The notes below the pieces were generated by a model. It was not told the DNA's origin. It made no database searches and was given only the letters and a program-made list of their open reading frames with translations. From NCBI GenBank assembly GCA_016182565.1, contig JACPGI010000009.1, positions 19,154 through 83,153 of the forward strand: DNA of 64,000 nt. The letters run 5' to 3'. The position numbers and the translations under genes are program-made. This DNA is from a candidate division WWE3 bacterium (GTDB taxonomy: Bacteria; Patescibacteriota; WWE3; UBA101185; UBA10185). Shown one piece after another: positions 9,088 through 61,325 of the stretch; within the stretch, counting starts at the first letter, position 1, and the number at the start of each line of letters is the position of its first letter.

Positions 9088-10767
9088 ATGCATCCTATGC
9101 GCTGGAACATAAAATCAACTCAAGCATTAACTTCAAATTCTAAAGAAAGTTTTATAGATCTTTTACTTTCAAATAGGGGAATATCCTCAAAAGACAAAGA
9201 GTTATTTCTAAATCCTCCAAAAATATTTTCCATGCTAAAAGACTTACCTAAAGATTTTAGAGTTAATGCAAAAAAGGCTAAGGAATTAATCCTTCAAGCA
9301 ATTTCAAAAAATCAGCCAATTGTAATTCATGGGGACTATGATGCTGATGGTATTTGTGCTACTGCAATTTTACTTACTACCATCAGAAATGAACTTGGAT
9401 ACAAAAATTGTTTTGCATTTATCCCAAATAGATTTGAACATGGGTATGGTCTTTCCATAAAATCAATTGACGCTTCTCACAAAAATTTAAAAAAAGAAAT
9501 TGGTAAATTTGACAAGGTGCTTCTTATAACTGTAGATACCGGTATTACTTCGGTAGAGGAGACTTTATATGCTAAGAAAATTGGATTTGATGTGATTATT
9601 ACAGACCACCATCAAAAACCAGAAACCCTTCCCGAATATGATTGCCTTGTTTGGTGTGACGAGGTGGTAGGTTCTGGTGTAGCTTGGATATTGTCCAAAG
9701 TTTTAGGTTCAAAAAATCCTAAGGATTTAGCTCTTGTTGCTTTAGCTACTGTTACAGACTTACAACCCCTGTTTAGATATAACAGGTCAATTGTAAAAGA
9801 GGGTTTGGAAATTTTAAATACCAACCCCCCAACCGGGATAAAAATTCTAGCGCAAGTTGCAGGCAAAAACTCTTCTGAGATAACAACTTATGATTTGGGT
9901 TGGGTTTTTGGTCCAAGGTTAAATGCTACCGGAAGGATTGGTTCAGCAGATGATGCGCTTTTACTTCTACTTGAAAACGATGAAACAAAAGCTTTAGAAC
10001 ATGCAAAAAAACTAAATCAGCTAAATGTAGACCGCCAGGATAAAACTATGGAGATGTATGACTTGGCAACCGAAATCTCTTCTAAGGAGTTACCCCGAGT
10101 AATAATTTCTGCACACTCTGACTATCATGAGGGGATTATAGGATTAGTAGCTGCAAAACTTGTTCAAAAGCATTATAGACCAGCTATGGTGTTAAGTATT
10201 AATGGTGAATTGGCTAAAGGCTCTGTGAGATCTGTAACTGGTGTTGATATCATAGAATTTTTAAGAAAGATGGGGGATTTGTTTGAAAATGTTGGGGGGC
10301 ATCCTATGGCTGCTGGATTTACTATAAAAACTACCAAAATCGATGAATTAAGAAAGCGTACAGCCAAACTTGCAGCCGAATTTATTTTGGATATCTTTTT
10401 GGAACCAGAATTAACAGTGGATTTGAAAGTTTCGCTTTCTGATGTAAAACCCGAGTTTGTTAAAAAAATAAACATGTTAAAGCCTTTTGGTGTAGGAAAC
10501 CCTGCCCCTCTTTTTGTTGCTCAAGGTTTGGGGATTGTTGGGTTTGATAAAGTTGGTAAGGATGGTAGCCATCTTACTTTACAACTTATCTCTGAAGGGA
10601 AAGTATATAAAGCAATCTATTTTGGAAATGGTGCTTTAGCTGGTGAGTTAAAGCTTGGCAATACAATTGATATTGTTTTCGCTCCAGAACTTAATCTTTT
10701 TAAAGGTAAGGAATATTTAAATATTGTTATAAAAGATATACAAAAAGCAGACAGTCGCAAATTGTGA
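9088..10767 (+). CDS. recJ: Single-stranded-DNA-specific exonuclease RecJ (DHH/DHHA1)
   Basis: DHH motifs IVIHGDYDADGICATAIL, ITVDTGIT and IITDHH. DHHA1 GGH motif (GGHPMAAG). The ORF-track start at 8944 adds an implausible hydrophobic extension, so the internal ATG at 9088 is preferred. Confidence 0.85.
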   Translation: MHPMRWNIKSTQALTSNSKESFIDLLLSNRGISSKDKELFLNPPKIFSMLKDLPKDFRVNAKKAKELILQAISKNQPIVIHGDYDADGICATAILLTTIRNELGYKNCFAFIPNRFEHGYGLSIKSIDASHKNLKKEIGKFDKVLLITVDTGITSVEETLYAKKIGFDVIITDHHQKPETLPEYDCLVWCDEVVGSGVAWILSKVLGSKNPKDLALVALATVTDLQPLFRYNRSIVKEGLEILNTNPPTGIKILAQVAGKNSSEITTYDLGWVFGPRLNATGRIGSADDALLLLLENDETKALEHAKKLNQLNVDRQDKTMEMYDLATEISSKELPRVIISAHSDYHEGIIGLVAAKLVQKHYRPAMVLSINGELAKGSVRSVTGVDIIEFLRKMGDLFENVGGHPMAAGFTIKTTKIDELRKRTAKLAAEFILDIFLEPELTVDLKVSLSDVKPEFVKKINMLKPFGVGNPAPLFVAQGLGIVGFDKVGKDGSHLTLQLISEGKVYKAIYFGNGALAGELKLGNTIDIVFAPELNLFKGKEYLNIVIKDIQKADSRKL

Positions 10768-10777
10768 TTTGCGACTG
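10741..10777 (-). terminator. Hairpin (CAGTCGCAAAT-TGTG-ATTTGCGACTG) spanning the recJ stop codon. On the - strand it is followed by UCUGCUUUUUG. Candidate terminator for the - strand gene 10795..11013.
   Basis: 11-bp perfect inverted repeat. The U-tract is only on the - strand. Confidence 0.4.
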
Positions 10778-10794: not shown

Positions 10795-11013
10795 TTAATT
10801 TGCATACGAAAAGGAGCATCTTACTATATCTGGTCTTGATTCCCTTTCCCCATTTATACTATAGACAAGATATTTACCCTCTTTTAATAACTCTTTAAGT
10901 TTTTTATCAAACTCTCCCGCACTATGTACTGCAATGTTTCTTCTTGTGGTTGCTTGAAGGTTGTCACGTTCATTTGGTGTATCAAACACGTGAATTATTA
11001 CAGTTTGTTTCAT
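10795..11013 (-). CDS. Hypothetical 72-aa protein
   Basis: Strong SD (AAAGGAGTGAGGT) directly upstream of the ATG on the - strand. No TM. No motif I recognise. Confidence 0.5.
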   Translation of the reverse strand: MKQTVIIHVFDTPNERDNLQATTRRNIAVHSAGEFDKKLKELLKEGKYLVYSINGERESRPDIVRCSFSYAN

Positions 11014-11094
11014 ACCTCACTCCTTTGTTTATTTAATTGTTTATTTTAGGGGAAAGATTTATAGGACCTCCATTAGTATTACATGATTTTTGTA

Positions 11095-11129
11095 TTGACA
11101 GCAATAACTTAAAAATGTATCTTGCAATT
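11095..11129 (+). promoter_or_regulatory. Candidate sigma70-type promoter (TTGACA, 17 nt, TATCTT) for the aspS leader
   Basis: Perfect -35 hexamer and a 4/6 -10 hexamer with 17-nt spacing, about 150 nt upstream of the T-box core. Confidence 0.3.
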
Positions 11130-11134
11130 AGTAT

Positions 11135-11340
11135 AAAAAGCAATCGTAGGGATTGTGGCCCCCTATGGCTGGTAGGATGAACTCAAGTATTTCTACAGTA
11201 CTTTATAATAAGTTTTTACGAAATTCTTGAAAGTAAGCTTTCCCGGGCATGCCCGTTACAGCTGTAAATTAAGTAAAATGACTGGGTGGTACCGTCCACA
11301 CTTCTGGACCCTGGCAATAGTGCCAGGTTTTTTTGTACTT
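11135..11340 (+). promoter_or_regulatory. T-box riboswitch leader upstream of aspS. Core GGGTGGTACCG at 11284-11294. Antiterminator GTCCA/TGGAC flanked by GGG/CCC. Overlapping terminator CCTGGCA-ATAG-TGCCAGG plus U7 at 11310-11334.
   Basis: The sequence matches the T-box consensus AGGGUGGNACCGCG. A mutually exclusive antiterminator/terminator pair sits directly 5' of an aminoacyl-tRNA synthetase gene. The stem I specifier is not resolved (GAU at about 11183 is a candidate). Confidence 0.6.
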
Positions 11341-11362
11341 ATTTTGGTGCATAATTAGAACT

Positions 11363-12655
11363 ATGAAAAGAACATATATAAAAGATGTAAAAGCAAAAGT
11401 TGGTGAGACCGTTTGTATTAAGGGTTTTGTTCACACAATAAGAGACCAAGGCAAAATAAAATTTATGGTGATAAGAGACATCACCGGGTTTTGCCAAGTC
11501 GTAGTCTTAAAATCAGTAGAATCGGTTTTTGAAGCAGTAGCTGGCCTTAGTATTGAATCTGTAATCTCCGTTGAGGGGCTTGCCAAAGACGTTCCACAGG
11601 CTCCGGGCGGGTTTGAAATAGAGGCAATCTCCCTTGAGATATTATCCCTTGCTACACCAGAACTTCCAATACCTGTAGTTTCTGATAAAGGTGGTGACGA
11701 GACTGATATTACCTTAAGGCTTGACTGGAGACAGCTTGATTTAAGAAGGCCTGAGCGTAAAACTATTTTTAGAGTTTGGACAGCACTTGAACAAGGTTTC
11801 AGAGAGTATTTTGCTACTAATGGGTATTTTCAACTCTACTCACCAGCTTTTATGAACACTGCAAGTGAGAGTGGTGCTGAAGTTTTTGAAGTATCTTACT
11901 TTGAGAAAAAAGCCTACCTTGCCCAGTCTCCTCAGTTTTATAAACAAATGGCTATGTCTGCAGGATTTGAGAAGATTTTTATGGTTGGGCCGGTTTTTAG
12001 GGCTGAACCCTCTTATACTACAAGACATATGACAGAATTTACCGGTTGGGATTTTGAGTTTTCTTACGTAGAGTCTCACGAAGATGTTATGCGTGAACTT
12101 GAGGATGTTTTTATCTCAGGTTTTAAAAAAGTTAAGGAGGATGTAGGTATAGCAATAGAAATTCCATCAAAACCTTTTCCAAAAATGACAATGACAGAAG
12201 TGAAAGTAAAGCTTGCGGCAATAGGAATAAAAAGTGAAAAGGAGTTTGATATAAACCCAGAAGAAGAACGTGAGATTTGTAGGTTAGTAAAAGAGGAAAC
12301 CGGTAGTGACTTTTTATTTGTAACAGATTATTCAAAAGAAATTCGACCGTTTTATCATATGCGCCAAGGCAAAGACAATAAGCTAACAAAAAGCTTTGAT
12401 CTTTTGTATAAAGGTTTAGAAGTTGTGACAGGAGCTCAGAGAGAACATAGGTATGATGTATTAGTCGAGCAGGCAAAAGATAAGGGTATGGATATAACAT
12501 CTTTAGAGGATTACTTAAACTTTTTTAAATATGGTTGTCCACCTCACGGCGGAGTAGGTATAGGTCCAGGAAGAATTGTTATGAAGATACTAGATCTACC
12601 AAGTGTAAAAGAAGCTACATTTTTACCGCGTGATGTAAAACGTCTACGACCTTAA
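11363..12655 (+). CDS. aspS: Aspartyl-tRNA synthetase, archaeal/class IIb short type (likely non-discriminating)
   Basis: About 430 aa. N-terminal OB anticodon-binding domain. Class II motif 2 FRAEPSYTTRHMTEFTGWDFE. Motif 3 GGVGIGPGRIVM. The TTG at 11333 overlaps the terminator, so ATG 11363 is preferred. Confidence 0.85.
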   Translation: MKRTYIKDVKAKVGETVCIKGFVHTIRDQGKIKFMVIRDITGFCQVVVLKSVESVFEAVAGLSIESVISVEGLAKDVPQAPGGFEIEAISLEILSLATPELPIPVVSDKGGDETDITLRLDWRQLDLRRPERKTIFRVWTALEQGFREYFATNGYFQLYSPAFMNTASESGAEVFEVSYFEKKAYLAQSPQFYKQMAMSAGFEKIFMVGPVFRAEPSYTTRHMTEFTGWDFEFSYVESHEDVMRELEDVFISGFKKVKEDVGIAIEIPSKPFPKMTMTEVKVKLAAIGIKSEKEFDINPEEEREICRLVKEETGSDFLFVTDYSKEIRPFYHMRQGKDNKLTKSFDLLYKGLEVVTGAQREHRYDVLVEQAKDKGMDITSLEDYLNFFKYGCPPHGGVGIGPGRIVMKILDLPSVKEATFLPRDVKRLRP

Positions 12656-14993: not shown

Positions 14994-16454
14994 ATGACAG
15001 TTAGAACAAGAATGGCTCCAAGTCCTACGGGTGAATATCATATAGGTCACATTCGAACCGTGCTATACAATGTAGCCCTATCAAAGAAAATGGGCGGAAA
15101 ATTCTTACTCAGGATTGAAGATACAGATAGACATAGGTATGTAGAAGGCGCTACCGATAGAATTCTAGATGTGATAGGGGACTATGGCTTATCTTGGGAT
15201 GAAGGTCCTAGAGTGGGTGGTGAGTTTGGACCATATATACAATCTGAAAGGCTTTCCCTATATGAAAAGTATGCGAAAGAACTTATTGCAAAGAAAAACG
15301 CCTATTATTGTTTTTGCAGTGAGGAGAGCCTTAATGAGTTAAGAAATTCGCAACAGGCTAAAGGTATGCCTTCAACTAAATATGACAAAAAGTGTTTGAA
15401 TTTGTCAGAGGAGGAGATTAAAAAGAATTTGTCTGACGGTAAGCCCTATGTGATTAGACTAAACGTGCCTGCCAATAGGGATGTTACTTTTCATGATGAA
15501 GTTTTTGGTGATATCACAATAAATACTGACTCTATTGATGACCAGATACTACTAAAAAGTGATGGTTATCCGTCTTATCATTTGGCAGTCGTTGTAGACG
15601 ATCATCTTATGAATATTACCCATGTGATGAGAGGGAATGATTGGATCCCATCTACCCCAAAGCATGTTTTATTGTATGAAGCATTTGGGTGGGAACAGCC
15701 AAAGTATATTCACCTTCCCAACTTAAAAGAAAAAGGTGGTACTAAGAAATTATCTAAAAGGTTTGGACCTGTTAGTGCAATTCAATTTTTGGAAGAGGGT
15801 TATCTTGCGGAGGCACTTTTGAATTTTCTTATGTTTCTAGGTTGGAATCCAGGTACCGAGAAAGAAATTTACTCTCTAGAAGAATTTATAAATGATTTTG
15901 ATATTTCACGGATTCATAAAACTGATCTTGTGGCTTTTGATAGGGAAAAGCTTTTGTGGATAAATGGATATTACATCCGCCAACTTTCACCCGAAGATTT
16001 ACATACCGTATTTTTAAACTGGGCAAATAAATTCTCTATTGTATTAAATCCGGGTTTAATTGATAGAAATATTGGACCAAAAGTTTTAAGTCTTGTTCAA
16101 GAAAGAGTCAAAAAATTATCAGAGGTTTCTGCTATGACTCCATATTTTTTTGATAATCCAAAAGTTGATTCAACACTTCTTAGTGAATTTGCAAAGGAAG
16201 CAAACCCAAAAGATATTCTGACGAATTTTTGGCTATTTTATAAAAATATTGTAAATTGGGATAAAGAAAATTTGGATACACTTTCCCACGATTTTATAAA
16301 GAAAAAAGGTTACAAACCCAAAGAGGCCTTTATGACCCTACGAATTGCAGTGACTGGAGCTGTAGCTACACCCCCACTTTTTGACACATTAGAGTTTATT
16401 GGTAAAAAGACAACTTTATTGCGAATCGAGTCTGCAATTAAGATTTTGAGCTAA
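14994..16454 (+). CDS. gltX: Glutamyl-tRNA synthetase
   Basis: HIGH-region APSPTGEYHIGHIRT. KMSKS-like KLSKR. Class I catalytic core plus the C-terminal anticodon-binding domain. Confidence 0.9.
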   Translation: MTVRTRMAPSPTGEYHIGHIRTVLYNVALSKKMGGKFLLRIEDTDRHRYVEGATDRILDVIGDYGLSWDEGPRVGGEFGPYIQSERLSLYEKYAKELIAKKNAYYCFCSEESLNELRNSQQAKGMPSTKYDKKCLNLSEEEIKKNLSDGKPYVIRLNVPANRDVTFHDEVFGDITINTDSIDDQILLKSDGYPSYHLAVVVDDHLMNITHVMRGNDWIPSTPKHVLLYEAFGWEQPKYIHLPNLKEKGGTKKLSKRFGPVSAIQFLEEGYLAEALLNFLMFLGWNPGTEKEIYSLEEFINDFDISRIHKTDLVAFDREKLLWINGYYIRQLSPEDLHTVFLNWANKFSIVLNPGLIDRNIGPKVLSLVQERVKKLSEVSAMTPYFFDNPKVDSTLLSEFAKEANPKDILTNFWLFYKNIVNWDKENLDTLSHDFIKKKGYKPKEAFMTLRIAVTGAVATPPLFDTLEFIGKKTTLLRIESAIKILS

Positions 16455-52769: not shown

Positions 52770-54887
52770 ATGAAGTATAAACTTGCTTTTCTTATATTTG
52801 CAATTCTTTTAACTGTAAATATATTTTCACATGTCCCAAAGGATTCTTTTTTATTTCTACATGATGAGTATCTGATACTTTCTGATCAAGAAGATTTCAA
52901 ACAGTTTTTTACAAGAAATCCAAATAATTTCGGTATAGCAAATACCACAGTTATGCTCGTTACTTTTTTTGACAGGCTTTACTATTCCCTAACTTTCTTT
53001 TTAAACATTAGCACCTTGCATGCTCAAATGGTTTTGTACTTTCTAAAATTTTTGCTTCTAATGTATTTGCCTTTTGTTGGGTTTAGTTTAATAAATAAGT
53101 TGTTTAAAGATGAAACAAGAGTAGGTGATTTTGAAGTTTTTGTTATTTCATTATGGTATAGCTTTAATACTTACACTCTAATATTTTTGCACGGTAATGC
53201 TTTTGCTTTAACACTTCTTTTAGCTTATGTCTTAGCTCCACTTTCCTTTTATTACTTTCATAGATCTGTTTTTGAAGGAGATATTTTATCTAAACTGAAA
53301 TTTATATTTACTTTGTTTCTGATGTTTTTTTCATTATATGTATTTGCAGTTTTTGTGATGCTACTTACTATTTATGTTTTCTTATATGCGTTTGCAAAAA
53401 AAATTACTTTTGGAAAAGTTATGGGAAACTTACTTAGCTTGGCAATATTGTTTTTACCGCTTCTTAGCATGTTTATTTTAATACCGTATGAGTTATTTGT
53501 GAATTTTAATATTACAACAAATCTAAGCGGGGGTGAGACGTACAACATGTTAAAGGGAGGACTTTTATACCAATTACTTATGTGGTTTTCATGGGGAATT
53601 TATACTTTTTGGAGTCCAAGAAACATCTTCACTTTTAGTCAGTATTTTAGAACTTTCCCATCCTTAGTTGCACCATTTATTTTATACGGAATCGTAATTT
53701 ATGGAGCAATAAAGAAAAAAACAACCATATTAATTCCAATATTCTTATTCTTATTCTTATTTTTTATCTTCTTTTCAAAAGGCGCCCAATCCCCCTTTGG
53801 TGAGATTTACAAATATTTAGTTGAAAATAACTTTTTATTTAGACTTTTTAGATCACCAGATAACAAGTTTGGATTTGGTGTTATTTTTTCTATGGCGTGT
53901 TTATTAATTTTTGTAGCAAGTAGTGTAAAAAAATCTGTTTTTATACCCCTTATTATATTTGTAATTGCTATACAGGGATTTTTGATATTTAACGGTGTTG
54001 CAGTTATTGGTGAAAATAAAAAAACCTCCACAGATAGAATTATTTCTTTATCCACAGAACAACAGAACCTAATTAGTTTTATAAACAAATCCAATCTAAC
54101 CTATGGTTATATTTTGGCACTTCCAACAACAGATTTTGGCCACTTTGAGGTGGGTAGTAATGATTTACACATTGGTCAGGACCTATTGCCAAAATTTTTA
54201 AAACTTCCCTTTATTCACTTAGCTGACAATACAGGCATGTCTAGCAAACTATATAAGAATTTATCGGGCCTTATCAAAAATGAGGATATAACTGTACTTG
54301 CTAACTCCCCAATAAGATACATCTTATTAAGATATGACGTAAAACGTGCGGATGTCTCTAAATCACTTATCCGGGAGCTTAAGGAAAACTTTAAACCTAT
54401 TTATACAACTAAAATGTATGAGTTGTACGAAAATACTTTAGCCGTTCCGATTATAGAGGTGTCAAACTCTTCAATTTCTTATGATTATCCAGTCAAGCAC
54501 AAAATTACCCTTAAAAATGTTTCAGATCCTTTGGACCTTAATTTTTATGAGGGCTTTAACAGAGATTGGTATATTTTCCCAATTAAAAGAAGTAAAGAAG
54601 TCAACCTAGATGCAAATATTTTTGATGTTAAGTATTTATGGCAAAAACCAGCTTTTGCTGATTCTCACGTTTTATTAAATAATTACGGTAATAAGTGGAA
54701 AATTTCTAGTAATGAAATTAGGTCTTTGGGGAATGAATTTTTTATTCAAAACGCTGATGGCACAATTGATTTTGATGCGGTTATTTATTTTAAAACACAG
54801 GCAATATTTTATCTTGGCATAATATTATCTGGGTTTTATCTATTGTTAGTTGGAATTTATGCACTTTACATCATCAAAAAAAGATAA
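52770..54887 (+). CDS. Uncharacterised polytopic membrane protein, paralog A (YfhO/GT-C-like topology: N-terminal TM bundle, large extracytoplasmic domain, C-terminal TM anchor)
   Basis: More than 10 TM. Conserved loop FSKGAQSPFGEIYKYL. C-terminal about 300-aa soluble region and a final TM (FYLGIILSGFYLLLVGIYALYII). Confidence 0.5.
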   Translation: MKYKLAFLIFAILLTVNIFSHVPKDSFLFLHDEYLILSDQEDFKQFFTRNPNNFGIANTTVMLVTFFDRLYYSLTFFLNISTLHAQMVLYFLKFLLLMYLPFVGFSLINKLFKDETRVGDFEVFVISLWYSFNTYTLIFLHGNAFALTLLLAYVLAPLSFYYFHRSVFEGDILSKLKFIFTLFLMFFSLYVFAVFVMLLTIYVFLYAFAKKITFGKVMGNLLSLAILFLPLLSMFILIPYELFVNFNITTNLSGGETYNMLKGGLLYQLLMWFSWGIYTFWSPRNIFTFSQYFRTFPSLVAPFILYGIVIYGAIKKKTTILIPIFLFLFLFFIFFSKGAQSPFGEIYKYLVENNFLFRLFRSPDNKFGFGVIFSMACLLIFVASSVKKSVFIPLIIFVIAIQGFLIFNGVAVIGENKKTSTDRIISLSTEQQNLISFINKSNLTYGYILALPTTDFGHFEVGSNDLHIGQDLLPKFLKLPFIHLADNTGMSSKLYKNLSGLIKNEDITVLANSPIRYILLRYDVKRADVSKSLIRELKENFKPIYTTKMYELYENTLAVPIIEVSNSSISYDYPVKHKITLKNVSDPLDLNFYEGFNRDWYIFPIKRSKEVNLDANIFDVKYLWQKPAFADSHVLLNNYGNKWKISSNEIRSLGNEFFIQNADGTIDFDAVIYFKTQAIFYLGIILSGFYLLLVGIYALYIIKKR
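53741..53760 (+). repeat. Hexanucleotide microsatellite (TTCTTA)x3 inside the CDS, encoding FLFLFL
   Basis: atTCTTATTCTTATTCTTATTtttt read directly. Confidence 0.5.
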
Positions 54888-57123
54888 CTATTTAGGTTAT
54901 ATTCTATTGTTCTTTTTTATTTCTCTAGTGTTAACGGCCATATTTTTTTATGGCTTAAAAAGCAACGAATTTTTAATGATCGGTGATCAGTATTTCTTAT
55001 TTAATTTCAAGGAGTTGGCGTGGTCGAGTTTTTACATAAAAAAATTAGATAATTTAGGAATACACAATAGCTGGCAGTTTTTAACCCAGTTTTGGGATGT
55101 CATTTTTTTGATGACACTTTATAAGTTGGGCTTAAGTTTTTTTGTTATTGAAAAGTTACAATTTTTCTTTGCTTTATTTATCACACTATCAATTTCATTT
55201 GTTGGATTCTTGCATATCGGTAACGATTTTTCATCAACTTCCAAGGCAAGCAAATTAAAAATTCTTTTTATCACTTTTTGGTATAGTTTTAATCCTTATA
55301 CTGTATCTCTTTGGCACGGCGGGGTGTATGACATTGGTGCGGCAATAACTTATTCACTAGCTCCACTGATCTTTTATTTTGTTAAAAAGAATCTTTTTGC
55401 CCCAGTTAGTGTAGAAAAGCTTGGAAAATTGGCACTTATGCTTTTTGTATCTTCTTATGTTTTTTGGTTGTTTGCACCCTTAGTGTTTTTACTTGTTTTA
55501 TATTTGCTTTTAAGTTTCTTTCTAGAGAAAAAGCCGGATTTAAAAAAAAGCACTGAATTTGTACTAATACTATCAAACAGTGTTGTATTAGCTTTTATGT
55601 ATATCCCAATGCTAAGTTTTATTATTTTTAATTTAGCATTCCAGTATTTTGACCAGGAAGGTCTGCTTAGCCTATTTTCAGTTCCGACCTACGGGAATCA
55701 GCAAGGGGGTATGTGGTATCAATTTTTGATGCTATTTTCATGGGGCATATACACTGAGTGGACACCTAGAACTATATATTCATTTCATAAATATTACCTT
55801 TCTATTTATTACAAACTTTCTACCCTCGCTGTTTATTTTATTATTTTGTATGGGGTTGTAAAAAAGTTAATTAAACAAGTTAGTTCTTTTAGCACCTCAA
55901 TAGTTTTTTTATTACTCTTATTTGTATTAATATTTTTTTCAAAGGCTGCCCAACCCCCTCTTGGGGAAATTTTTACCTATCTGTACACCACCGTACCTCT
56001 ATTTGGAATTTTTAGAACTGCTGACATCCGATTTGGATTTGCTATTGTTCTAACTGTTGCATTGTTTCTTACTTATATTTCAGAAAATTTGAGTAAAAGG
56101 GTTATTAGTCTTGTTTTTGTAGTTATTATGCTTGGGCAAAGTTGGTTTTTCTTTACAGGTAGAGCAATAAAGGGGGAAGAAATACCGGGAAAATACTTTG
56201 ACCGTATTATAAATATAACTAAGCCCTATGAAGAACTAATATCATTTTTAAACACAGATGCTTTGGAATCAGGTTACGTTTTTCCTATTCCTGGTATGGA
56301 TTATGGTTACTTTATTTTAGATAGTAAAGAAGAGGAGCATTATATTGGACAAGGATTACTTCCCAAATTAGTTACAAGGCCATTTCTTTCTACTGTTGAG
56401 TCTGGTGGTATGTTAACAAGAACCTTGGAATATTTGAACAAAATCACACTTGACAAAACATACGTCAACTTAAAAAAGTTTCCAATAAAATATATTCTGG
56501 TAAGAAAGGATTTAGGATGTAGTCATAATGCTTGCAAGGATTATAACTTAGAAGATCTAGATAAAATCTACAAATTAGTCTTTAAAAATGAATTATTTTA
56601 CCTATATCAAATACCAAATCATTTGCCAGTTTTAAGTGCAAAAAATCTCACATTCAAAATGCTTAGTCCTATAAAATACGAACTATATTTAACAAATTTA
56701 GTCACTACAACTCAGTTGAATTTTGCACAAAGTTTCAGTAAACATTGGAAACTGTATGTAAATCCTATTAAAAATATAGATTGTAGCAGTGATTTAGTCC
56801 CATATAGTGGGGTTTTAGAATGTGTGGGAGATGTTCGGGCACTTAACTTATCAGATATTACATATCTTTTTTCTAAGCCTGTATTTACATCAACACATGT
56901 AGAAAGTGTCTCATTTGCAAATACTTGGGGCATTAACCCAGACTACATTACCGCAAATCTTTCGGAGAATTTTTATAGTATAAATACAGATGGTAGTGTT
57001 AACATAAGACTAACATTGTTCTTTTTCCCACAGGCACAATTTCTGCTCGCATTGGTACTTACACTACTTTCGGTTTTATTTGTAGTTACACTAACTATAG
57101 TTAAACGCACACCGAGTAATTAA
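54850..57123 (+). CDS. Uncharacterised polytopic membrane protein, paralog B of 52770..54887
   Basis: Colinear conserved blocks (FSKAAQPPLGEIFTYL, WYSFNPYT versus WYSFNTYT, FSWGIYT in both). Same topology with a C-terminal TM. Confidence 0.5.
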   Translation: MEFMHFTSSKKDNYLGYILLFFFISLVLTAIFFYGLKSNEFLMIGDQYFLFNFKELAWSSFYIKKLDNLGIHNSWQFLTQFWDVIFLMTLYKLGLSFFVIEKLQFFFALFITLSISFVGFLHIGNDFSSTSKASKLKILFITFWYSFNPYTVSLWHGGVYDIGAAITYSLAPLIFYFVKKNLFAPVSVEKLGKLALMLFVSSYVFWLFAPLVFLLVLYLLLSFFLEKKPDLKKSTEFVLILSNSVVLAFMYIPMLSFIIFNLAFQYFDQEGLLSLFSVPTYGNQQGGMWYQFLMLFSWGIYTEWTPRTIYSFHKYYLSIYYKLSTLAVYFIILYGVVKKLIKQVSSFSTSIVFLLLLFVLIFFSKAAQPPLGEIFTYLYTTVPLFGIFRTADIRFGFAIVLTVALFLTYISENLSKRVISLVFVVIMLGQSWFFFTGRAIKGEEIPGKYFDRIINITKPYEELISFLNTDALESGYVFPIPGMDYGYFILDSKEEEHYIGQGLLPKLVTRPFLSTVESGGMLTRTLEYLNKITLDKTYVNLKKFPIKYILVRKDLGCSHNACKDYNLEDLDKIYKLVFKNELFYLYQIPNHLPVLSAKNLTFKMLSPIKYELYLTNLVTTTQLNFAQSFSKHWKLYVNPIKNIDCSSDLVPYSGVLECVGDVRALNLSDITYLFSKPVFTSTHVESVSFANTWGINPDYITANLSENFYSINTDGSVNIRLTLFFFPQAQFLLALVLTLLSVLFVVTLTIVKRTPSN

Positions 57124-57139
57124 TCTATATAATAGTTTT

Positions 57140-58822
57140 ATGCATTGGCTAATCTATTCGTACAATGATATGGCAGCAATATTTGTGGGGGGTTTGGAAG
57201 TTTTACTTTCCAAAGATTTTTTTCCAACAATAGCAACAAGCTCGCAGCCTAGTTCAATAGATTTTTTAAGTAACTTTATAAACCTAATACTTTTTAAAGC
57301 TTTTTACCCTGTAACTGTAGCAAATATTTTAATGATTCTTTACTTTGCTTTAGCATTTATATTTTCGTTTATCCTATTTAAAAACTTGGTTTCAAATAGG
57401 TTATTAGCTTTAGTTTTTGCTTTGTTTTATGGAGTTAGCAACCACTTTTTGTATCGGATAATTTCTTTTACCCCAAATATTTATCAGACTTTCTTCTTTC
57501 CACTTACATTTTTCTTGCTATTAAGGAAGACAAAACCAATATTTTTGAGTTTTCTTACTGTATTTTTCTTTACTTTTAGTAGTTATTACGCTTATTTTGT
57601 TTTTATTTGTATTGTGCTTTGGTACTGTTTTGATGAATTATTTAGTTTAGTCTCGTTAAAACAAAAATTTATAACTTCTATAAAAAATATTGCAATATTT
57701 TCTATTGGCACAATCTTAGGTGTATTTCTGATTTACACACCAGTCATTATTCAATCTCTTCCAACTTTTAAAAATGTAAATACCAATAATGTGACAAAAG
57801 AAGTTCAGGTTATGGAAAAAACGTATCGCCCTATTGAGGATTTTTATAATTTAAGTCTTCGACCGTGGTACTTTTTTATTCCACCACAAAAATCTTTATA
57901 TTTTGCGGAATTATCAAAAGATTTATATAAAAAAATAGCAAGTTCCAATTATTATTTAGCAGATGATTACACAGAAGATGAGATGGGTGGTGTGTATCTG
58001 GGGTGGCATTTTTTGCTTGGTGCTGCTTTTGTTTTAGCCATTGCAGGTCTCTCTTTTGGAAAAAAGCCTAAACCTAAGATAACAGAATACTTTGGTAATA
58101 TTGTTGCAAATAGAAAGTTGATAATTAAACTAACGCTTATTACACTTGCTATCTTAGCTATTAGTCTTCCACCATCTTTTACTATATCAAATATTACATT
58201 TTACACCCCGTCCTACATCATCTACTTAATACTTCCAGTCTTTCGCACCACTGTAAGGTGGGCTATTGTTATTTACCTTGTTGTACTTATATTAAATTTA
58301 TTTTTGATGGTAGATTTATATAATTTAATTCGTTTAAGAGTAACAAAATTTATTTTTGTAATCTCATTATTAGTTGTAACTTTTGTTGTTCTTTCAGTTA
58401 AACTACCATTTATAGATACTAGCACCCCACCAGAAGACATCGCATTTTTAAATACTGTTTCATCTAAAGATTTTTCCTATGCTGTTTATCCAAAAGGGGA
58501 TTACCATTCCATATTTTGGATCTTAAATCATAAGAAAAAACTTTTAAATCCAGTCAATTTTATAAATAGAACTACTGGATTTAAATCAAATGAATTTTCA
58601 GATAATTTAGTAACAGAGAAAGGTGTTAATAAGTTGAAAGAATTAGGGGGGCAGTATCTTGTTTTAAAAAAGGAGGAGATTTCGGAAAATAAGTTAAAGA
58701 ATATAAACATAATTAACCCCTTTATAACTTCTATAAGTTCATTGGAAAGTTTTTTTGAAAGATTTGGGACTAAAGTGTTTGACTCGCAGCACACAGCAAT
58801 TTACTACCTTAACTCCCTATAA
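57140..58822 (+). CDS. Uncharacterised polytopic membrane protein (560 aa)
   Basis: Hydrophobic helices throughout. No motif I recognise. Confidence 0.45.
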   Translation: MHWLIYSYNDMAAIFVGGLEVLLSKDFFPTIATSSQPSSIDFLSNFINLILFKAFYPVTVANILMILYFALAFIFSFILFKNLVSNRLLALVFALFYGVSNHFLYRIISFTPNIYQTFFFPLTFFLLLRKTKPIFLSFLTVFFFTFSSYYAYFVFICIVLWYCFDELFSLVSLKQKFITSIKNIAIFSIGTILGVFLIYTPVIIQSLPTFKNVNTNNVTKEVQVMEKTYRPIEDFYNLSLRPWYFFIPPQKSLYFAELSKDLYKKIASSNYYLADDYTEDEMGGVYLGWHFLLGAAFVLAIAGLSFGKKPKPKITEYFGNIVANRKLIIKLTLITLAILAISLPPSFTISNITFYTPSYIIYLILPVFRTTVRWAIVIYLVVLILNLFLMVDLYNLIRLRVTKFIFVISLLVVTFVVLSVKLPFIDTSTPPEDIAFLNTVSSKDFSYAVYPKGDYHSIFWILNHKKKLLNPVNFINRTTGFKSNEFSDNLVTEKGVNKLKELGGQYLVLKKEEISENKLKNINIINPFITSISSLESFFERFGTKVFDSQHTAIYYLNSL

Positions 58823-58843
58823 AACTGCTATAATCTCGAGACT

Positions 58844-59203
58844 ATGGGTACCGCAGTCTTTATAATATTAACATTGAATTTTTTTATAATCTTATTTCCA
58901 CTTAGGTTAAAATCTGTTTTTGTTGTTTCAAACTTAGTAATTTTACTCCTTTTATATAAACTTGTTGGAGTAGATTTTATTATGAATTTTCTTATTCTTT
59001 TAGTACTATCTTGGTCGATACTGATCTTGTCTAGTTTAAGCAGAATTCAGATATATAGTGTCGGTGGTTTTTTCATATTGCTAGCTGGTGTTTTTATGGT
59101 ATTTGAAATTGAGGCACCAGCTAGGATTTTTGTCTCCATGGGTATCGCACTACTGATGTATTCAATTTTTAAAGATATCATATATGCAAAGATTAATGAT
59201 TAA
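58844..59203 (+). CDS. Small 4-TM membrane protein
   Basis: 119 aa, almost entirely hydrophobic. Confidence 0.4.
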   Translation: MGTAVFIILTLNFFIILFPLRLKSVFVVSNLVILLLLYKLVGVDFIMNFLILLVLSWSILILSSLSRIQIYSVGGFFILLAGVFMVFEIEAPARIFVSMGIALLMYSIFKDIIYAKIND

Positions 59204-61325
59204 GTTAACCTATTCTCTGCTTTTTATTATTTTTTTTAGTACACTTTTCGTTGGTGTTTGCTCTGCTAGATCAAAAATCGAACATTACCAATATATGTTT
59301 TTAACTTGGGGTTTTAGAGCGGATGTGTTAAATACTACGGTTGTCGAAGACACTAAACTTTTATCAAACGATGTTAAAGTAAAGCCAAAACATCTTATAC
59401 TCCTTTCTTCCCAATACAACGATTTGATACGGGGTACCGAGCAAGAAGCAAAATATAACAGTTTTACAAGCATAGTTCTTATATGCGATGAGAGGTTGTT
59501 ATTAGATAAGGTTTTAATCTGTGATAGGGATAGTGTATTCCCAGCTATAAGTACCTTAAACGTTTTAGAAGTATCACAAGATGTAAAAATATTACATGGG
59601 GATTTTAATACCAAAACTTTTCTTGTAGTGCCTGAAACTACACTTACAATACCTTTCAAACAATCACCCCTTTCTATATACATAAGTGCTTTCACAAAAA
59701 ATACAGATGTTAAATTTGATAAATCAAGTATATTTATAAAAGCTTTTCAAGGGTTAACTGAGACTGCGGCCTTGGAATTCACGGTGTTTTGTTTAATTTT
59801 GTCTTTTCTTACTTTTATTCTAGCAAACATTTTTTTAAAAAATGACTTTAAGGTAGATTTGAGAACTTTCCTAAATTCAGCAAAAAATCTTTTATATGTA
59901 ATTCAGAAATTTCTTGAAAATTACAAATGGATGTCTATATATCTATTTCTAATACTTTTATTTATCTATATTCCTGTAATCACAACGATTTCTTATCGAG
60001 ACGTTTCTGGTTTTGATATTAATTACATTTTAAGTTATATAATCGATAACTTAGATCCAAAGAAGGGCGTTATGTATATAGGTAGTGCAAGTACGGCAAG
60101 ACTTGCTTTGGTAGTTTACAACTATCTTATATTCGCAGTTCTTACTTTAATATTATTACCTTTTGGTATTTCTTATTTAAAGGCTGCTTCACTTAAAATT
60201 TTAGATTTAGAGGTTGATTCAAGACTTTCTAAATTTATGATACCAACCATATCGTTTGTAAGTATACTTTGTTTATTAGCATTACCAGTTAAATATGCTT
60301 ATTTATTTTTAAGTGTGTTGGGACTTTATCAAGTATTTTTTTATTTAAAAAGAAAACCCATTTCATTATATTATACGAATAAACAAAAGGTATTTTTAGT
60401 TGTTGGATACATTGCTTTTATAATTTTTGGTAAAGTTATACAAGCCCCCCTAGAGACATTTTTAAGTAAAAGTTCATCTAAGTTACTGTTTCCACTTGAA
60501 GATCGTATTGTATTTTTGCCATTTATTAAACCAAACGATGGGGGTGTTATTTTTGAAGATTTCTATGTCAGTAAAGAGGTTTCTGTAATGGTTGATGAAT
60601 ACGGAATAAATTACCCCGGATATAAAAAAATTGTAAACACCAGTATGCAGAATTTCGATAAGGATAAAAGTTATCTGATATCTGGTGGTAATATTGGTGA
60701 CTTTCTTACCTATGCCTCAGAGAATAAAAATCTTCTTGATACTTTAACTTCCAAAGACTATACCAATGTTTTTTATATTCAAAACGCGCCTATTGGGCCA
60801 AATTCAAAAATGAGTTTGGAATTCACACTTGATTGTGCGTTGGATGCTCCATTCTATAATATAAAGCTAAAAGCCAGGGATTTTGTAAGGCCTGCTCAGA
60901 CAATTATAGAAAAATCAGAGATTCTTGATTTCCCCGGGTGTTATTTGGGAGACAAGGAAGTTATATATAATGCACCATTAAACCCGAAGTATATTGCAGA
61001 CAGTGCGTTTTTTGAAATTATTCAGGAAGGACTGCCAATTAAAAATGTAAGATTAATACTTGATAATAAAAGTATTCCTGTGAAGTTTCTTAATTATGGT
61101 GAAAAAAATAAAATCTATGCCATTGGGACAAAACCTAATTTTGATACATTATACATTTATTCTTCCAACATAGATTCTGATTGGGTTAGTAAGTTAGACA
61201 CATCTGGAAACTCATATAATATCTCTAGCTTAATTAATGATTTAAAAACTAAAGATTTACTTGAAAATCCATTTGTAATCTGGCCAACACATGATCAAAA
61301 AGCCATATTAAAAAATGATTTATGA
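59184..61325 (+). CDS. Uncharacterised membrane protein: signal peptide, about 180-aa extracytoplasmic domain, central 8-10 TM bundle, about 280-aa C-terminal soluble domain
   Basis: Hydrophobicity pattern read from the translation. No motif I recognise. Confidence 0.45.
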   Translation: MQRLMIKLTYSLLFIIFFSTLFVGVCSARSKIEHYQYMFLTWGFRADVLNTTVVEDTKLLSNDVKVKPKHLILLSSQYNDLIRGTEQEAKYNSFTSIVLICDERLLLDKVLICDRDSVFPAISTLNVLEVSQDVKILHGDFNTKTFLVVPETTLTIPFKQSPLSIYISAFTKNTDVKFDKSSIFIKAFQGLTETAALEFTVFCLILSFLTFILANIFLKNDFKVDLRTFLNSAKNLLYVIQKFLENYKWMSIYLFLILLFIYIPVITTISYRDVSGFDINYILSYIIDNLDPKKGVMYIGSASTARLALVVYNYLIFAVLTLILLPFGISYLKAASLKILDLEVDSRLSKFMIPTISFVSILCLLALPVKYAYLFLSVLGLYQVFFYLKRKPISLYYTNKQKVFLVVGYIAFIIFGKVIQAPLETFLSKSSSKLLFPLEDRIVFLPFIKPNDGGVIFEDFYVSKEVSVMVDEYGINYPGYKKIVNTSMQNFDKDKSYLISGGNIGDFLTYASENKNLLDTLTSKDYTNVFYIQNAPIGPNSKMSLEFTLDCALDAPFYNIKLKARDFVRPAQTIIEKSEILDFPGCYLGDKEVIYNAPLNPKYIADSAFFEIIQEGLPIKNVRLILDNKSIPVKFLNYGEKNKIYAIGTKPNFDTLYIYSSNIDSDWVSKLDTSGNSYNISSLINDLKTKDLLENPFVIWPTHDQKAILKNDL

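What the first reader, a model, noticed from the sequence alone, without database searches (positions are those of the whole stretch)
11095..11362. T-box riboswitch controlling an archaeal-type AspRS gene
The leader contains GGGTGGTACCG, which matches the T-box consensus AGGGUGGNACCGCG. An antiterminator helix follows (GTCCA...TGGAC, closed by GGG/CCC). Its 3' strand is also the 5' strand of a canonical intrinsic terminator (CCTGGCA-ATAG-TGCCAGG plus U7), and this ends about 30 nt before the aspS ATG. That is exactly the T-box antitermination architecture. T-box leaders are classically a Firmicutes feature. Here one regulates a class IIb short AspRS, probably non-discriminating and serving both Asp and Asn, in a genome that otherwise looks CPR-like. 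The specifier codon (candidate GAU near 11183, with AAC also nearby) would show which tRNA is sensed.
Basis: partly seen in the sequence, partly recalled or inferred. Interest (0 to 1): 0.6.

Follow-up and report, generated by a model that had tools for sequence, protein, structure and literature searches.

The report
Stripped-down T-box leader before aspS
In front of the aspartyl-tRNA synthetase gene of a tiny candidate-phylum (WWE3) bacterium sits a real but heavily reduced T-box tRNA-sensing terminator switch that standard RNA databases miss, and its codon-like "specifier" reads GGC where its relatives have an aspartate or asparagine codon.

Summary
Rfam's T-box model gives only 20.8 bits (gathering score 93) and nothing when the whole window is searched. 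Comparative evidence settles it. 25 complete Patescibacteria aspS leaders share the architecture, and relatives reach 58 bits (E 4e-10). A model built without the window's clade finds this leader as the top hit in the window (70.9 bits). 20 of 31 base pairs show changes on both sides. The variant is minimal: a very short Stem I hairpin with no elbow platform, Stem II with an S-turn, the IIA/B pseudoknot with F-box, no Stem III, and an intrinsic terminator. The window's clade has also lost the K-turn. The true specifier position is in the Stem I loop (11157-11159). There 17 relatives have GAC and 4 have AAC, but the window's clade has an invariant GGC. The sensed tRNA is most likely tRNA-Asp through a central G·U wobble, but this is unproven. 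I rate it a new variant of a known kind and moderately interesting.

The parts
11095..11123 (+). Promoter-like site: -35 TTGACA (11095-11100), 17-nt spacer, -10 TATCTT (11118-11123)
   Evidence: 10 of 12 matches. TTGACA and a TATCTT/TAGATT -10 element sit at the same distance from Stem I in L161, L162 and L164. The start site is inferred at about 11130.
11140..11169 (+). Very short Stem I. Base pairs G40-C69 and C41-G68, bulge AAU, a 7-bp helix 11145-11151/11161-11167, and a 9-nt terminal loop AUUGUGGCC (11152-11160). There are no tandem G·A K-turn pairs here; C-G and G·U take their place.
   Evidence: Rfam aligns it to the base of T-box Stem I with about 75 model positions deleted. 6 of 7 helix pairs change on both sides. 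It is 28-30 of 30 identical in lineages whose aspS third codon positions are only 43-50% identical.
11157..11159 (+). Specifier-equivalent triplet GGC (followed by C11160). Relatives have GAC-A (Asp) or AAC-A (Asn) at this position.
   Evidence: Position-by-position loop comparison: L166 AAUGUGACA, L168 CUUGUGACC, L171 CUUGUGACA, L092 CUAGUGACA, against AUUGUGGCC in the window, L161, L162/163 and L164.
11171..11243 (+). Stem II. Lower helix 11171-11176/11238-11243, S-turn (loop E) strands AUGAAC 11177-11182 and AAGUAAG 11231-11237, and a variable apical hairpin 11183-11230.
   Evidence: Aligned to the Stem II GAA/AGUA consensus of RF00230. 5 of 6 lower-helix pairs change on both sides. The apical part is only 10-15% conserved.
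11244..11263 (+). Stem IIA/B pseudoknot with the F-box. IIA is CGG 11244-11246 paired with CCG 11253-11255. IIB is G11251-C11262 and C11252-G11261. The F-box CCGUUA is at 11253-11258.
   Evidence: Nearly invariant in the subgroup. It is aligned to RF00230 Stem IIA/F-box. The third IIB pair covaries in the wider family (A-U in 4, U-A in 5, C-G in 2) but is U·U in the WWE3-type leaders.
11264..11281 (+). Purine-rich single-stranded linker (GUAAAUUAAGUAAAAUGA) in place of Stem III
   Evidence: The distance from IIB to the T-box is about 20 nt in WWE3-type leaders and 41-59 nt in most other CPR leaders, which do have a Stem III hairpin. Rfam deletes the Stem III positions.
11282..11314 (+). Antiterminator. 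A1 is 11282-11286/11310-11314, the 7-nt T-box bulge UGGUACC is 11287-11293, and A2 is 11294-11298/11305-11309.
   Evidence: A2 changes on both sides in 5 of 5 pairs and A1 in 3 of 5. Independent model R2 hit.
11310..11334 (+). Intrinsic terminator: 7-bp stem CCUGGCA/UGCCAGG, loop AUAG, U7. Its 5' strand contains the 3' strand of A1.
   Evidence: A hairpin plus U-run sits at the same place in relatives, with compensatory changes (for example L171 CCUCUCA/UGAGAGG).
11363..12655 (+). aspS, non-discriminating (archaeal-type) aspartyl-tRNA synthetase, 430 aa
   Evidence: NF003483 477 bits and TIGR00458 395 bits, both above their cutoffs. P0001 is 100% identical.

Best explanation
The leader is a T-box-derived, tRNA-dependent transcription attenuator that controls aspS.

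How it most likely works:
- Transcription starts about 10 nt upstream of Stem I.
- By default the terminator (11310-11334) forms and stops RNA polymerase 28 nt before the start codon.
- The tRNA's free NCCA end pairs with UGGU in the 7-nt bulge. This stabilises helix A1, which uses up the 5' strand of the terminator, so transcription reads through into aspS.
- The sensed tRNA is most likely tRNA-Asp (anticodon GUC, G73). It would be read through a non-canonical specifier GGC (G-C, G·U, C-G), possibly extended to five pairs (GUGGC against anticodon-loop positions 34-38, GUCAC).

Shown: the sequence elements, their conservation and covariation, the mutual exclusivity of A1 and the terminator, and homology to T-boxes.
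Inferred: tRNA binding, the identity of the tRNA, and the regulatory outcome.
For: - T-box core, bulge, A1/A2 and overlapping terminator are present.
- RF00230 is the only plausible Rfam match in the targeted search (20.8 bits, E 0.012).
- RF00230 hits relatives at the same position upstream of aspS: L161 35.7, L164 33 and L166 41.7 bits; L013 58.4 (E 3.9e-10), L035 42.8 and L015 37.1 bits.
- Model R2, built without the window's clade, finds the leader at 70.9 bits, E about 2e-16, as the top hit in the window.
- Pair counts: 91.5% of cells paired against 73.8% in shuffles (0 of 500 reach it) and 33-52% when partners are slid; 20 of 31 pairs change on both sides.
- Selection: the Stem I loop is 9 of 9 identical and Stem I 93-100% identical, while aspS third codon positions are 43-50% identical and the Stem II apex 10-15%.
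- Energetics: antiterminator -8.5 kcal/mol against terminator plus A2 hairpin -17.9 kcal/mol, so the default is OFF.
- Specifier census in 25 complete leaders: 17 GAC, 4 AAC, 4 GGC.
- The UGGN variable base is C in 17 and U in 8, never a purine. That fits a G73 discriminator, as in tRNA-Asp and tRNA-Asn (tRNA identity rules, own knowledge). U opposite G73 is documented for Trp T-boxes (PMC7778990).
Against: - The window's own Rfam score is far below the gathering score, and the leader is not found at E<=1 when the whole window is searched.
- GGC is a glycine codon. [quoted passage not shown]
- Elements described as required are missing: the elbow-binding platform (said to be generally required in transcriptional T-boxes), Stem III ('indispensable'), the K-turn ('likely required' with Stem II), and the G·U sensor pair at the base of A2, which is G-C here (PMC7583486).
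- No tRNA gene of this organism could be examined.
- There is no experimental evidence.
Confidence: 0.8

Rival explanations
1. It is a decaying T-box relic. The terminator acts as a constitutive, leaky attenuator and the upstream elements no longer sense a specific tRNA.
For: - The K-turn, Stem III, distal Stem I and a cognate specifier are all missing.
- The leader has been lost outright in close relatives: L165 and L170 have 60- and 43-nt recJ-aspS gaps.
- L008 keeps only the antiterminator/terminator half.
Against: - The Stem I loop, T-box bulge and IIA/B element are invariant or nearly so across lineages whose synonymous sites are close to saturation, while the Stem II apex drifts freely.
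- Helices are maintained by compensatory changes even within the window's clade.
- A strong default terminator (about 9 kcal/mol more stable) in front of an essential single-copy synthetase gene needs a way to be relieved.
Confidence: 0.1
2. The window's clade has switched ligand. The GGC specifier pairs perfectly with tRNA-Gly(GCC), so aspS transcription responds to glycine charging.
For: - GGC sits exactly at the specifier position and is invariant in four lineages.
- The usual rule is strict Watson-Crick pairing (PMC7778990).
Against: - There is no functional rationale for AspRS to respond to tRNA-Gly.
- The bulge variable base is U in 3 and C in 1 member of this clade, the same U/C mix as in the GAC and AAC leaders. 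That fits G73 and not the U73 of bacterial tRNA-Gly, which would call for A (own knowledge of tRNA identity).
- The AspRS is a clear orthologue of those behind GAC leaders.
Confidence: 0.05
3. It is protein-mediated feedback. AspRS binds the Stem I hairpin as a mimic of an anticodon arm (the loop contains UUGUG, which resembles U33-G34-U35), as ThrRS does on the E. coli thrS operator.
For: This rests only on sequence resemblance of the loop and on precedent recalled from memory. No tool result supports it directly.
Against: - The rest of the leader is a T-box discriminator whose bulge is complementary to NCCA.
- Relatives have plain codon-like loops such as YUGACA that do not resemble an anticodon loop.
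- The hairpin lies more than 190 nt from the start codon.
Confidence: 0.03

Closest known systems
Canonical (class I) transcriptional T-box leaders, Rfam RF00230 (for example Bacillus subtilis tyrS and glyQS)
   Same: - T-box sequence with the 7-nt UGGNACC bulge between helices A1 and A2.
- A terminator that overlaps the antiterminator, followed by a U-run.
- Stem II S-turn (GAA/AGUA) and Stem IIA/B pseudoknot with the F-box CCGUUA.
- Position in front of an aminoacyl-tRNA synthetase gene, with OFF as the default state.
   Different: - No long Stem I: about 75 model positions are missing, so there is no internal specifier loop, AG bulge, distal loop or elbow platform.
- No Stem III.
- No tandem G·A K-turn in the window's clade.
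- The terminal A2 pair is G-C instead of the conserved G·U.
- Only A1, not A2, competes with the terminator.
- It scores 20.8 bits against a gathering score of 93.
Actinobacterial ileS T-boxes with 'ultrashort' Stem I (class II, translational; Mycobacterium tuberculosis and Nocardia farcinica structures, reviewed in PMC7583486)
   Same: - Stem I is reduced to a short hairpin lacking the elbow-binding platform.
[quoted passage not shown]
- The specifier sits at the top of the short Stem I.
   Different: - Those regulate translation by sequestering the ribosome-binding site. This one ends in a canonical intrinsic terminator 28 nt upstream of the start codon.
- Those keep Stem III, the K-turn and a cognate specifier (AUC).
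- The phylum (Patescibacteria/WWE3), the gene (aspS) and the 9-nt hairpin loop are different.
- TBDB searched its class II model only in Actinobacteria (PMC7778990).
Clostridium acetobutylicum T-box controlling tRNA-dependent asparagine formation (Saad et al. 2012 and 2013, cited in PMC4206432; details from memory)
   Same: A T-box governs a non-discriminating AspRS pathway, and an Asn (AAC) specifier is used for a gene whose enzyme charges tRNA-Asn with Asp. This parallels the AAC leaders in L038, L083, L085 and L134.
   Different: That is a full-length Firmicute T-box. The window's leader has neither AAC nor GAC but GGC, and it has the reduced architecture.

Membership tests
T-box riboswitch (broad family) | Conserved T-box sequence forming a 7-nt bulge (UGGNACC) between helices A1 and A2 | tested here: met
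   GGGUGGUACCG at 11284-11294, with A1 and A2 supported by compensatory changes.
T-box riboswitch (broad family) | Mutually exclusive antiterminator and terminator (or sequestrator) | tested here: met
   The A1 3' strand (11310-11314) lies inside the terminator's 5' strand (11310-11316). Energies are -8.5 against -17.9 kcal/mol.
T-box riboswitch (broad family) | Specifier triplet in Stem I that matches the amino-acid class of the regulated gene and is followed by a purine | tested here: not met
   The window has GGC followed by C at 11157-11160. 21 of 25 relatives meet the codon rule at the homologous position (17 GAC, 4 AAC), nearly all followed by a purine. The feature is met in the family and departed from in the window's clade.
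T-box riboswitch (broad family) | UGGN variable base complementary to the discriminator base of the sensed tRNA | tested here: inconclusive
   N is U here, and C or U in all 25 leaders. That is compatible with G73 of tRNA-Asp/Asn. The organism's tRNAs could not be retrieved.
T-box riboswitch (broad family) | Stem II with S-turn, and Stem IIA/B pseudoknot with F-box | tested here: met
   AUGAAC/AAGUAAG and CGG..CCGUUA..GC are aligned to the RF00230 consensus. Lower Stem II covaries, and the IIB pair covaries in the wider family.
T-box riboswitch (broad family) | Binds uncharged tRNA and increases downstream expression | not testable with these tools
   This needs in vitro transcription or binding assays.
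Rfam RF00230 (class I T-box leader as curated) | Score at or above the gathering threshold (93 bits) | tested here: not met
   Window 20.8 bits; relatives 29-58 bits; no hit at all in whole-window searches.
Rfam RF00230 (class I T-box leader as curated) | Long Stem I with K-turn, internal specifier loop, AG bulge and distal loop (elbow platform) | tested here: not met
   About 75 model positions are replaced by an 8-9 nt loop. The K-turn tandem G·A pairs are replaced by C-G and G·U in the window's clade.
Rfam RF00230 (class I T-box leader as curated) | Stem III with flanking purines (part of the discriminator domain) | tested here: not met
   Only an 18-nt linker (11264-11281) separates IIB from A1, and the Stem III model positions are deleted.
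Class II (translational, ultrashort Stem I) T-boxes of Actinobacteria | Truncated Stem I lacking the elbow platform, dependent on the Stem II domain | tested here: met
   description of the class in PMC7583486.
Class II (translational, ultrashort Stem I) T-boxes of Actinobacteria | Expression platform is a sequestrator of the ribosome-binding site | tested here: not met
   The platform is a canonical hairpin plus U7 that ends 28 nt before the ATG, and no Shine-Dalgarno sequence is involved. Most relatives also have a terminator with a U-run.
Class II (translational, ultrashort Stem I) T-boxes of Actinobacteria | Match to the TBDB class II covariance model | not tested
   That model is not available in these tools.

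The most novel reading that the evidence does not exclude
Patescibacteria carry a previously undescribed lineage of minimal transcriptional T-boxes, roughly 115-180 nt from Stem I to the end of the antiterminator. They work without the tRNA-elbow platform and, in the WWE3 branch, without Stem III and the K-turn as well.

On the same non-discriminating AspRS gene, different lineages read either tRNA-Asp (GAC) or tRNA-Asn (AAC). In the window's clade the specifier has become GGC, which would be read by tRNA-Asp through a central G·U wobble within an extended five-base loop-loop pairing (GUGGC against GUCAC). That would be a natural exception to the rule of strict Watson-Crick specifier pairing.
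Probability: 0.4. Interest if true: 0.75.

Novelty: new variant of a known kind. Interest (0 to 1): 0.62.

Why it matters
- **Range.** It extends T-box regulation to the Candidate Phyla Radiation. Surveys in the held library list only Firmicutes, Actinobacteria, Chloroflexi, Deinococcus-Thermus and a few Proteobacteria (PMC2494555), and no held paper links T-boxes to CPR.
- **Detection.** Rfam-based annotation is blind to this variant, so riboswitch counts in CPR genomes are probably too low.
- **Current assumptions.** The architecture combines a very short Stem I with a transcription terminator, and in this clade it lacks Stem III, the K-turn and the G·U sensor pair. The field currently regards those elements as needed for kinetic tRNA capture and for sensing aminoacylation (PMC7583486). 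If the leader is functional, it defines a smaller working core.
- **Specifier choice.** The alternation between Asp and Asn specifiers on one non-discriminating AspRS gene, plus the conserved non-cognate GGC, gives a natural test set for how specifier choice evolves and how much wobble a T-box tolerates.

Tried and rejected
Rejected. These bases are the 5' strand of the Stem II S-turn. G11176 is paired, and U11178 can pair with A11236.
2. **Other copies in the window.** Model R1 with filters off finds nothing else above 11 bits, and a whole-window Rfam search at E<=1 finds nothing. gltX (14994-16454) has only a 26-nt upstream gap.
3. **Pairing between the Stem I loop and the antiterminator (UGUGG with CCACA 11296-11300).** It is present in the window, L161 and L164 but broken in L162 (CCAAA) with no compensating change, so it is not supported.
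4. **A Stem III-like hairpin formed by AGCU 11237-40 and AGCU 11260-63 (seen in the MFE fold).** It is not conserved, because L171 lacks the upstream AGCU.
[quoted passage not shown] ARAGORN over 171 loci gave 14 tRNAs, with no Asp or Gly.
6. **Closer relatives in genome and metagenome collections.** These gave at most 66-68% identity. Better ones (82%, 76%, 76%) came from the protein database.
7. **A T-box on Chloroflexi or Bacillota homologues of this aspS.** None was found.
8. **Automated hairpin finders for the specifier census.** They mis-parsed several leaders. I replaced them with manual parses that a script verified.
9. **Single-sequence folding of the leader.** It is not exceptional (z = -1.29), so folding energy alone says nothing.
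10. **Papers by Saad et al. and Vitreschak et al.** They are not held in the library.

Full report
**1. What is in the sequence**

The described features are all present.
- GGGTGGTACCG lies at 11284-11294.
- The hairpin GUCCA/UGGAC is at 11294-11298 and 11305-11309.
- An outer helix, CUGGG 11282-11286 with CCUGG 11310-11314, closes it.
- An intrinsic-terminator-like hairpin, CCTGGCA-ATAG-TGCCAGG, lies at 11310-11327 and is followed by seven T.
- The T-run ends 28 nt before the ATG at 11363.
- A promoter-like TTGACA-17-TATCTT lies at 11095-11123.

The ORF 11363-12655 is a non-discriminating, archaeal-type AspRS (NF003483, 477 bits against a cutoff of 353). It is identical to a protein from a candidate division WWE3 bacterium, a member of the Patescibacteria/CPR. 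recJ lies upstream and a D-Ala-D-Ala carboxypeptidase lies downstream.

**2. Direct test against Rfam**

At gathering thresholds the 64-kb window matches no Rfam family at all. With permissive filters on 11000-11400, RF00230 (T-box) matches 11134-11316 at 20.8 bits against a gathering score of 93, with E = 0.012. In that alignment the T-box/antiterminator part and the Stem II GAA/AGUA S-turn align well. About 75 positions of Stem I are replaced by an 8-nt loop. When the whole window is the search space, the hit does not survive E<=1.

**3. Comparative evidence reverses that verdict**

I fetched 160 aspS loci from genomes and metagenomes and closer relatives through the protein database.
- The T-box core recurs 50-195 nt upstream of aspS in many Patescibacteria.
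- RF00230 hits these leaders at the homologous place: L013 58.4 bits (E 3.9e-10), L035 42.8, L015 37.1; L166 41.7, L161 35.7, L164 33.
- All are below the gathering score for the same reason: the distal part of Stem I is absent.
- A covariance model built from seven WWE3-type leaders (R1) finds one element in the window (146.6 bits; next best 11 bits). It also recovers more leaders that my regex missed.
- R1 contains the window, so I built R2 from four leaders outside the window's clade. With filters off, R2 ranks 11209-11314 first in the whole window on both strands (70.9 bits, E about 2e-16; next best 15.1 bits).
- Chloroflexi and Bacillota homologues of this aspS have no T-box.

**4. Anatomy of the window's leader**

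| Element | Coordinates | Notes |
|---|---|---|
| Stem I base | G11140-C11169, C11141-G11168 | followed by a 3-nt bulge, AAU |
| Stem I helix | 11145-11151 / 11161-11167 | 7 bp |
| Stem I loop | 11152-11160 | AUUGUGGCC, 9 nt |
| Stem II lower helix | 11171-11176 / 11238-11243 | |
| Stem II S-turn | 11177-11182 (AUGAAC) / 11231-11237 (AAGUAAG) | loop E type |
| Stem II apex | 11183-11230 | variable |
| Stem IIA | 11244-11246 / 11253-11255 | |
| Stem IIB | 11251-11252 / 11261-11262 | pseudoknot |
| F-box | 11253-11258 | CCGUUA |
| Linker | 11264-11281 | purine-rich, no Stem III |
| Antiterminator | 11282-11314 | A1, bulge UGGUACC 11287-11293, A2 |
| Terminator | 11310-11334 | stem, loop, U7 |

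On an alignment of 12 leaders fitted to R1, 91.5% of cells pair. Shuffles give 73.8% (0 of 500 reach the observed value) and slid partners give 33-52%. 20 of 31 pairs change on both sides: Stem I 6 of 7, lower Stem II 5 of 6, A1 3 of 5, A2 5 of 5. That alignment leans towards the model's structure. However, the lower Stem II helix visibly covaries even within the window's own clade: GGUAGG/CUUUCC, GGUAAG/CUUACU, GAUGAG/CUCAUU, GACAAG/CUUGUU. The third IIB pair covaries across the wider family (A-U, U-A, C-G) but is U·U in the WWE3-type leaders.

**5. What is missing compared with described T-boxes**

- There is no distal Stem I (no elbow platform).
- There is no Stem III in the WWE3-type leaders. 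Their linker is about 20 nt, against 41-59 nt in most other CPR leaders, which do have a Stem III.
- In the window's clade the tandem G·A pairs of the K-turn are replaced by C-G and G·U pairs. L166, L168, L171 and most other CPR leaders keep GA...GA.
- The terminal pair of A2 is G-C rather than G·U. By my reading of the sequences this holds in nearly all CPR leaders.

[quoted passage not shown] It describes ultrashort Stem I only for actinobacterial translational ileS T-boxes. Here a very short Stem I is coupled to a canonical intrinsic terminator, and most relatives also have a hairpin plus U-run.

**6. The specifier**

In 25 complete leaders the Stem I hairpin loop carries the codon-like triplet near its 3' end (each parse was verified to occur once and to have complementary arms).
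- 17 have GAC (Asp).
- 4 have AAC (Asn): L038, L083, L085 and L134.
- 4 have GGC: the window, L161, L162/163 and L164.

Having either Asp or Asn specifiers on one gene fits an enzyme that charges both tRNAs. An Asn-linked T-box on the tRNA-dependent asparagine pathway is known from Clostridium acetobutylicum (Saad et al., cited in PMC4206432; details from memory).

The 9-nt loops align position by position: L171 CUUGUGACA, L168 CUUGUGACC, L166 AAUGUGACA, L092 CUAGUGACA, window clade AUUGUGGCC. So the window's clade has GGC-C where its nearest outgroups have GAC-A or GAC-C.

This is not an error and not drift. Four independent assemblies agree. The loop is 9 of 9 identical and Stem I is 28-30 of 30 identical, while aspS third codon positions are only 43-50% identical and the Stem II apex is 10-15% identical.

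**7. Which tRNA?**

The UGGN variable base is U in the window, L161 and L164, and C in L162. Across all 25 leaders it is C in 17 and U in 8, never a purine (three bulge strings printed are spurious first regex matches and were replaced by the values). C or U opposite a G73 discriminator (Watson-Crick or wobble) fits tRNA-Asp and tRNA-Asn. Bacterial tRNA-Gly has U73 and would call for A (tRNA identity rules, own knowledge). TBDB documents U opposite G73 in 46% of Trp T-boxes (PMC7778990).

I therefore favour tRNA-Asp, read through G-C, G·U, C-G. The invariant GUG[A/G]C of the 9-nt loops is the complement of tRNA-Asp anticodon-loop positions 34-38 (GUCAC in E. coli, from memory). That suggests a five-pair interaction which could make a central wobble tolerable. 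This is inference only. No tRNA gene of this organism could be found in the window or in the extra sequence fetched around both window ends, and the other loci held no tRNA-Asp or tRNA-Gly.

**8. Mechanism**

For 11278-11336 the antiterminator (A1 plus A2) evaluates to -8.5 kcal/mol, and the terminator together with the A2 hairpin to -17.9 kcal/mol. The default state is therefore termination. Only A1 competes with the terminator, because its 3' strand CCUGG is the first five bases of the terminator stem.

The proposed cycle is the classical one. Uncharged tRNA is anchored at its anticodon by the Stem I loop, the S-turn and the pseudoknot. Its NCCA end pairs with UGGU in the bulge. This stabilises A1, prevents the terminator from forming, and allows read-through into aspS.

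Shown: the elements, their conservation and covariation, the mutual exclusivity, and homology. Inferred: tRNA binding, ligand identity, and discrimination of charged from uncharged tRNA without Stem III and without the G·U pair.

**9. Classification and novelty**

By homology it belongs to the broad T-box family. It is not a member of RF00230 as curated: the score, long Stem I and Stem III were all tested and not met. It is not a class II translational T-box either, because its expression platform is a terminator. I therefore rate it a new variant of a known kind.

No paper in the held library links T-boxes with CPR, Patescibacteria or Saccharibacteria. TBDB searched its short-Stem-I model only in Actinobacteria. 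Absence from this library does not prove that the variant has never been reported.

**10. Distribution**

The leader is patchy. Among the loci fetched it is present in 7 of the 9 closest lineages, and it is absent in L165 and L170, where recJ abuts aspS. L008 keeps only the linker, antiterminator and terminator directly after the recJ stop codon. In the window the second synthetase gene, gltX, has no such leader.

Noticed in passing
window 10795-11013 (-): A 72-aa ORF lies between recJ and the aspS leader and is transcribed divergently from aspS. It has no NCBIfam hit, but it is 38% identical (E 1e-14) to a 70-aa ORF at the same place in L161 (358-570, -). It is therefore a real small gene of unknown function.
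   Followed up: partly
window 10752-10777: An 11-bp terminator-like hairpin (CAGTCGCAAAT/ATTTGCGACTG), scored on the minus strand, lies at the recJ stop codon and just beyond the end of the small minus-strand ORF. It might serve as a bidirectional terminator.
   Followed up: no
window 14994-16454 (+): A second synthetase gene, gltX (TIGR00464, 490 bits), has only a 26-nt upstream gap and no T-box-like leader. The leader is therefore not a general feature of synthetase genes in this genome segment.
   Followed up: yes
L038, L083, L085 and L134 (Stem I loops CAAACA, UUAACA, UAAACA, CAAACA): In these Patescibacteria the same non-discriminating AspRS gene is preceded by a leader with an Asn specifier (AAC) instead of Asp (GAC). 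The ligand has apparently switched between the enzyme's two tRNA substrates.
   Followed up: partly
L008 2914-2960: This is a truncated leader. Only the linker, T-box bulge, A2 and terminator remain, directly after the recJ stop codon, with no Stem I, II or IIA/B (28.3 bits, model positions 94-141). It looks like a decay intermediate.
   Followed up: no
L165 (aspS at 344) and L170 (aspS at 1501): These close relatives (73% and 67% AspRS identity) have no leader at all. recJ is followed by aspS after about 60 and 43 nt, which points to repeated loss of the T-box.
   Followed up: partly
L166 2802-3260 and L171 2790-3248: In the GAC-type WWE3 relatives a 152-aa tRNA_edit (PF04073, YbaK/ProX-like) gene directly follows or overlaps the end of aspS. 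The window lacks it and goes straight to the S11 peptidase gene.
   Followed up: no
window 11294/11309, and the same pair in the CPR leaders: The terminal pair of helix A2 is described as a conserved G·U that senses the aminoacyl group (PMC7583486). It is G-C here and in nearly all CPR aspS leaders; it is A-U or U-A in a few, and G·U only in L012 (my reading of the sequences).
   Followed up: partly
L077 856-946 (-): A c-di-GMP-I riboswitch (RF01051, 82.8 bits, above its gathering score) lies in the Bacillota MAG locus that was fetched for its aspS homologue.
   Followed up: no
window 52770-61325 (+), also L173 1367-9922: A run of large ORFs (about 560-760 aa) has no Pfam hit on record in L173; the one I scanned against NCBIfam (window 59184-61325) had no hit. 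It sits next to a cluster of glycosyltransferase and Wzy-type genes, possibly for cell-surface proteins.
   Followed up: no
window 1-64000: No tRNA gene and no Rfam family at gathering score were found anywhere in the 64 kb, nor any tRNA in the flanking loci L172 and L173.
   Followed up: yes
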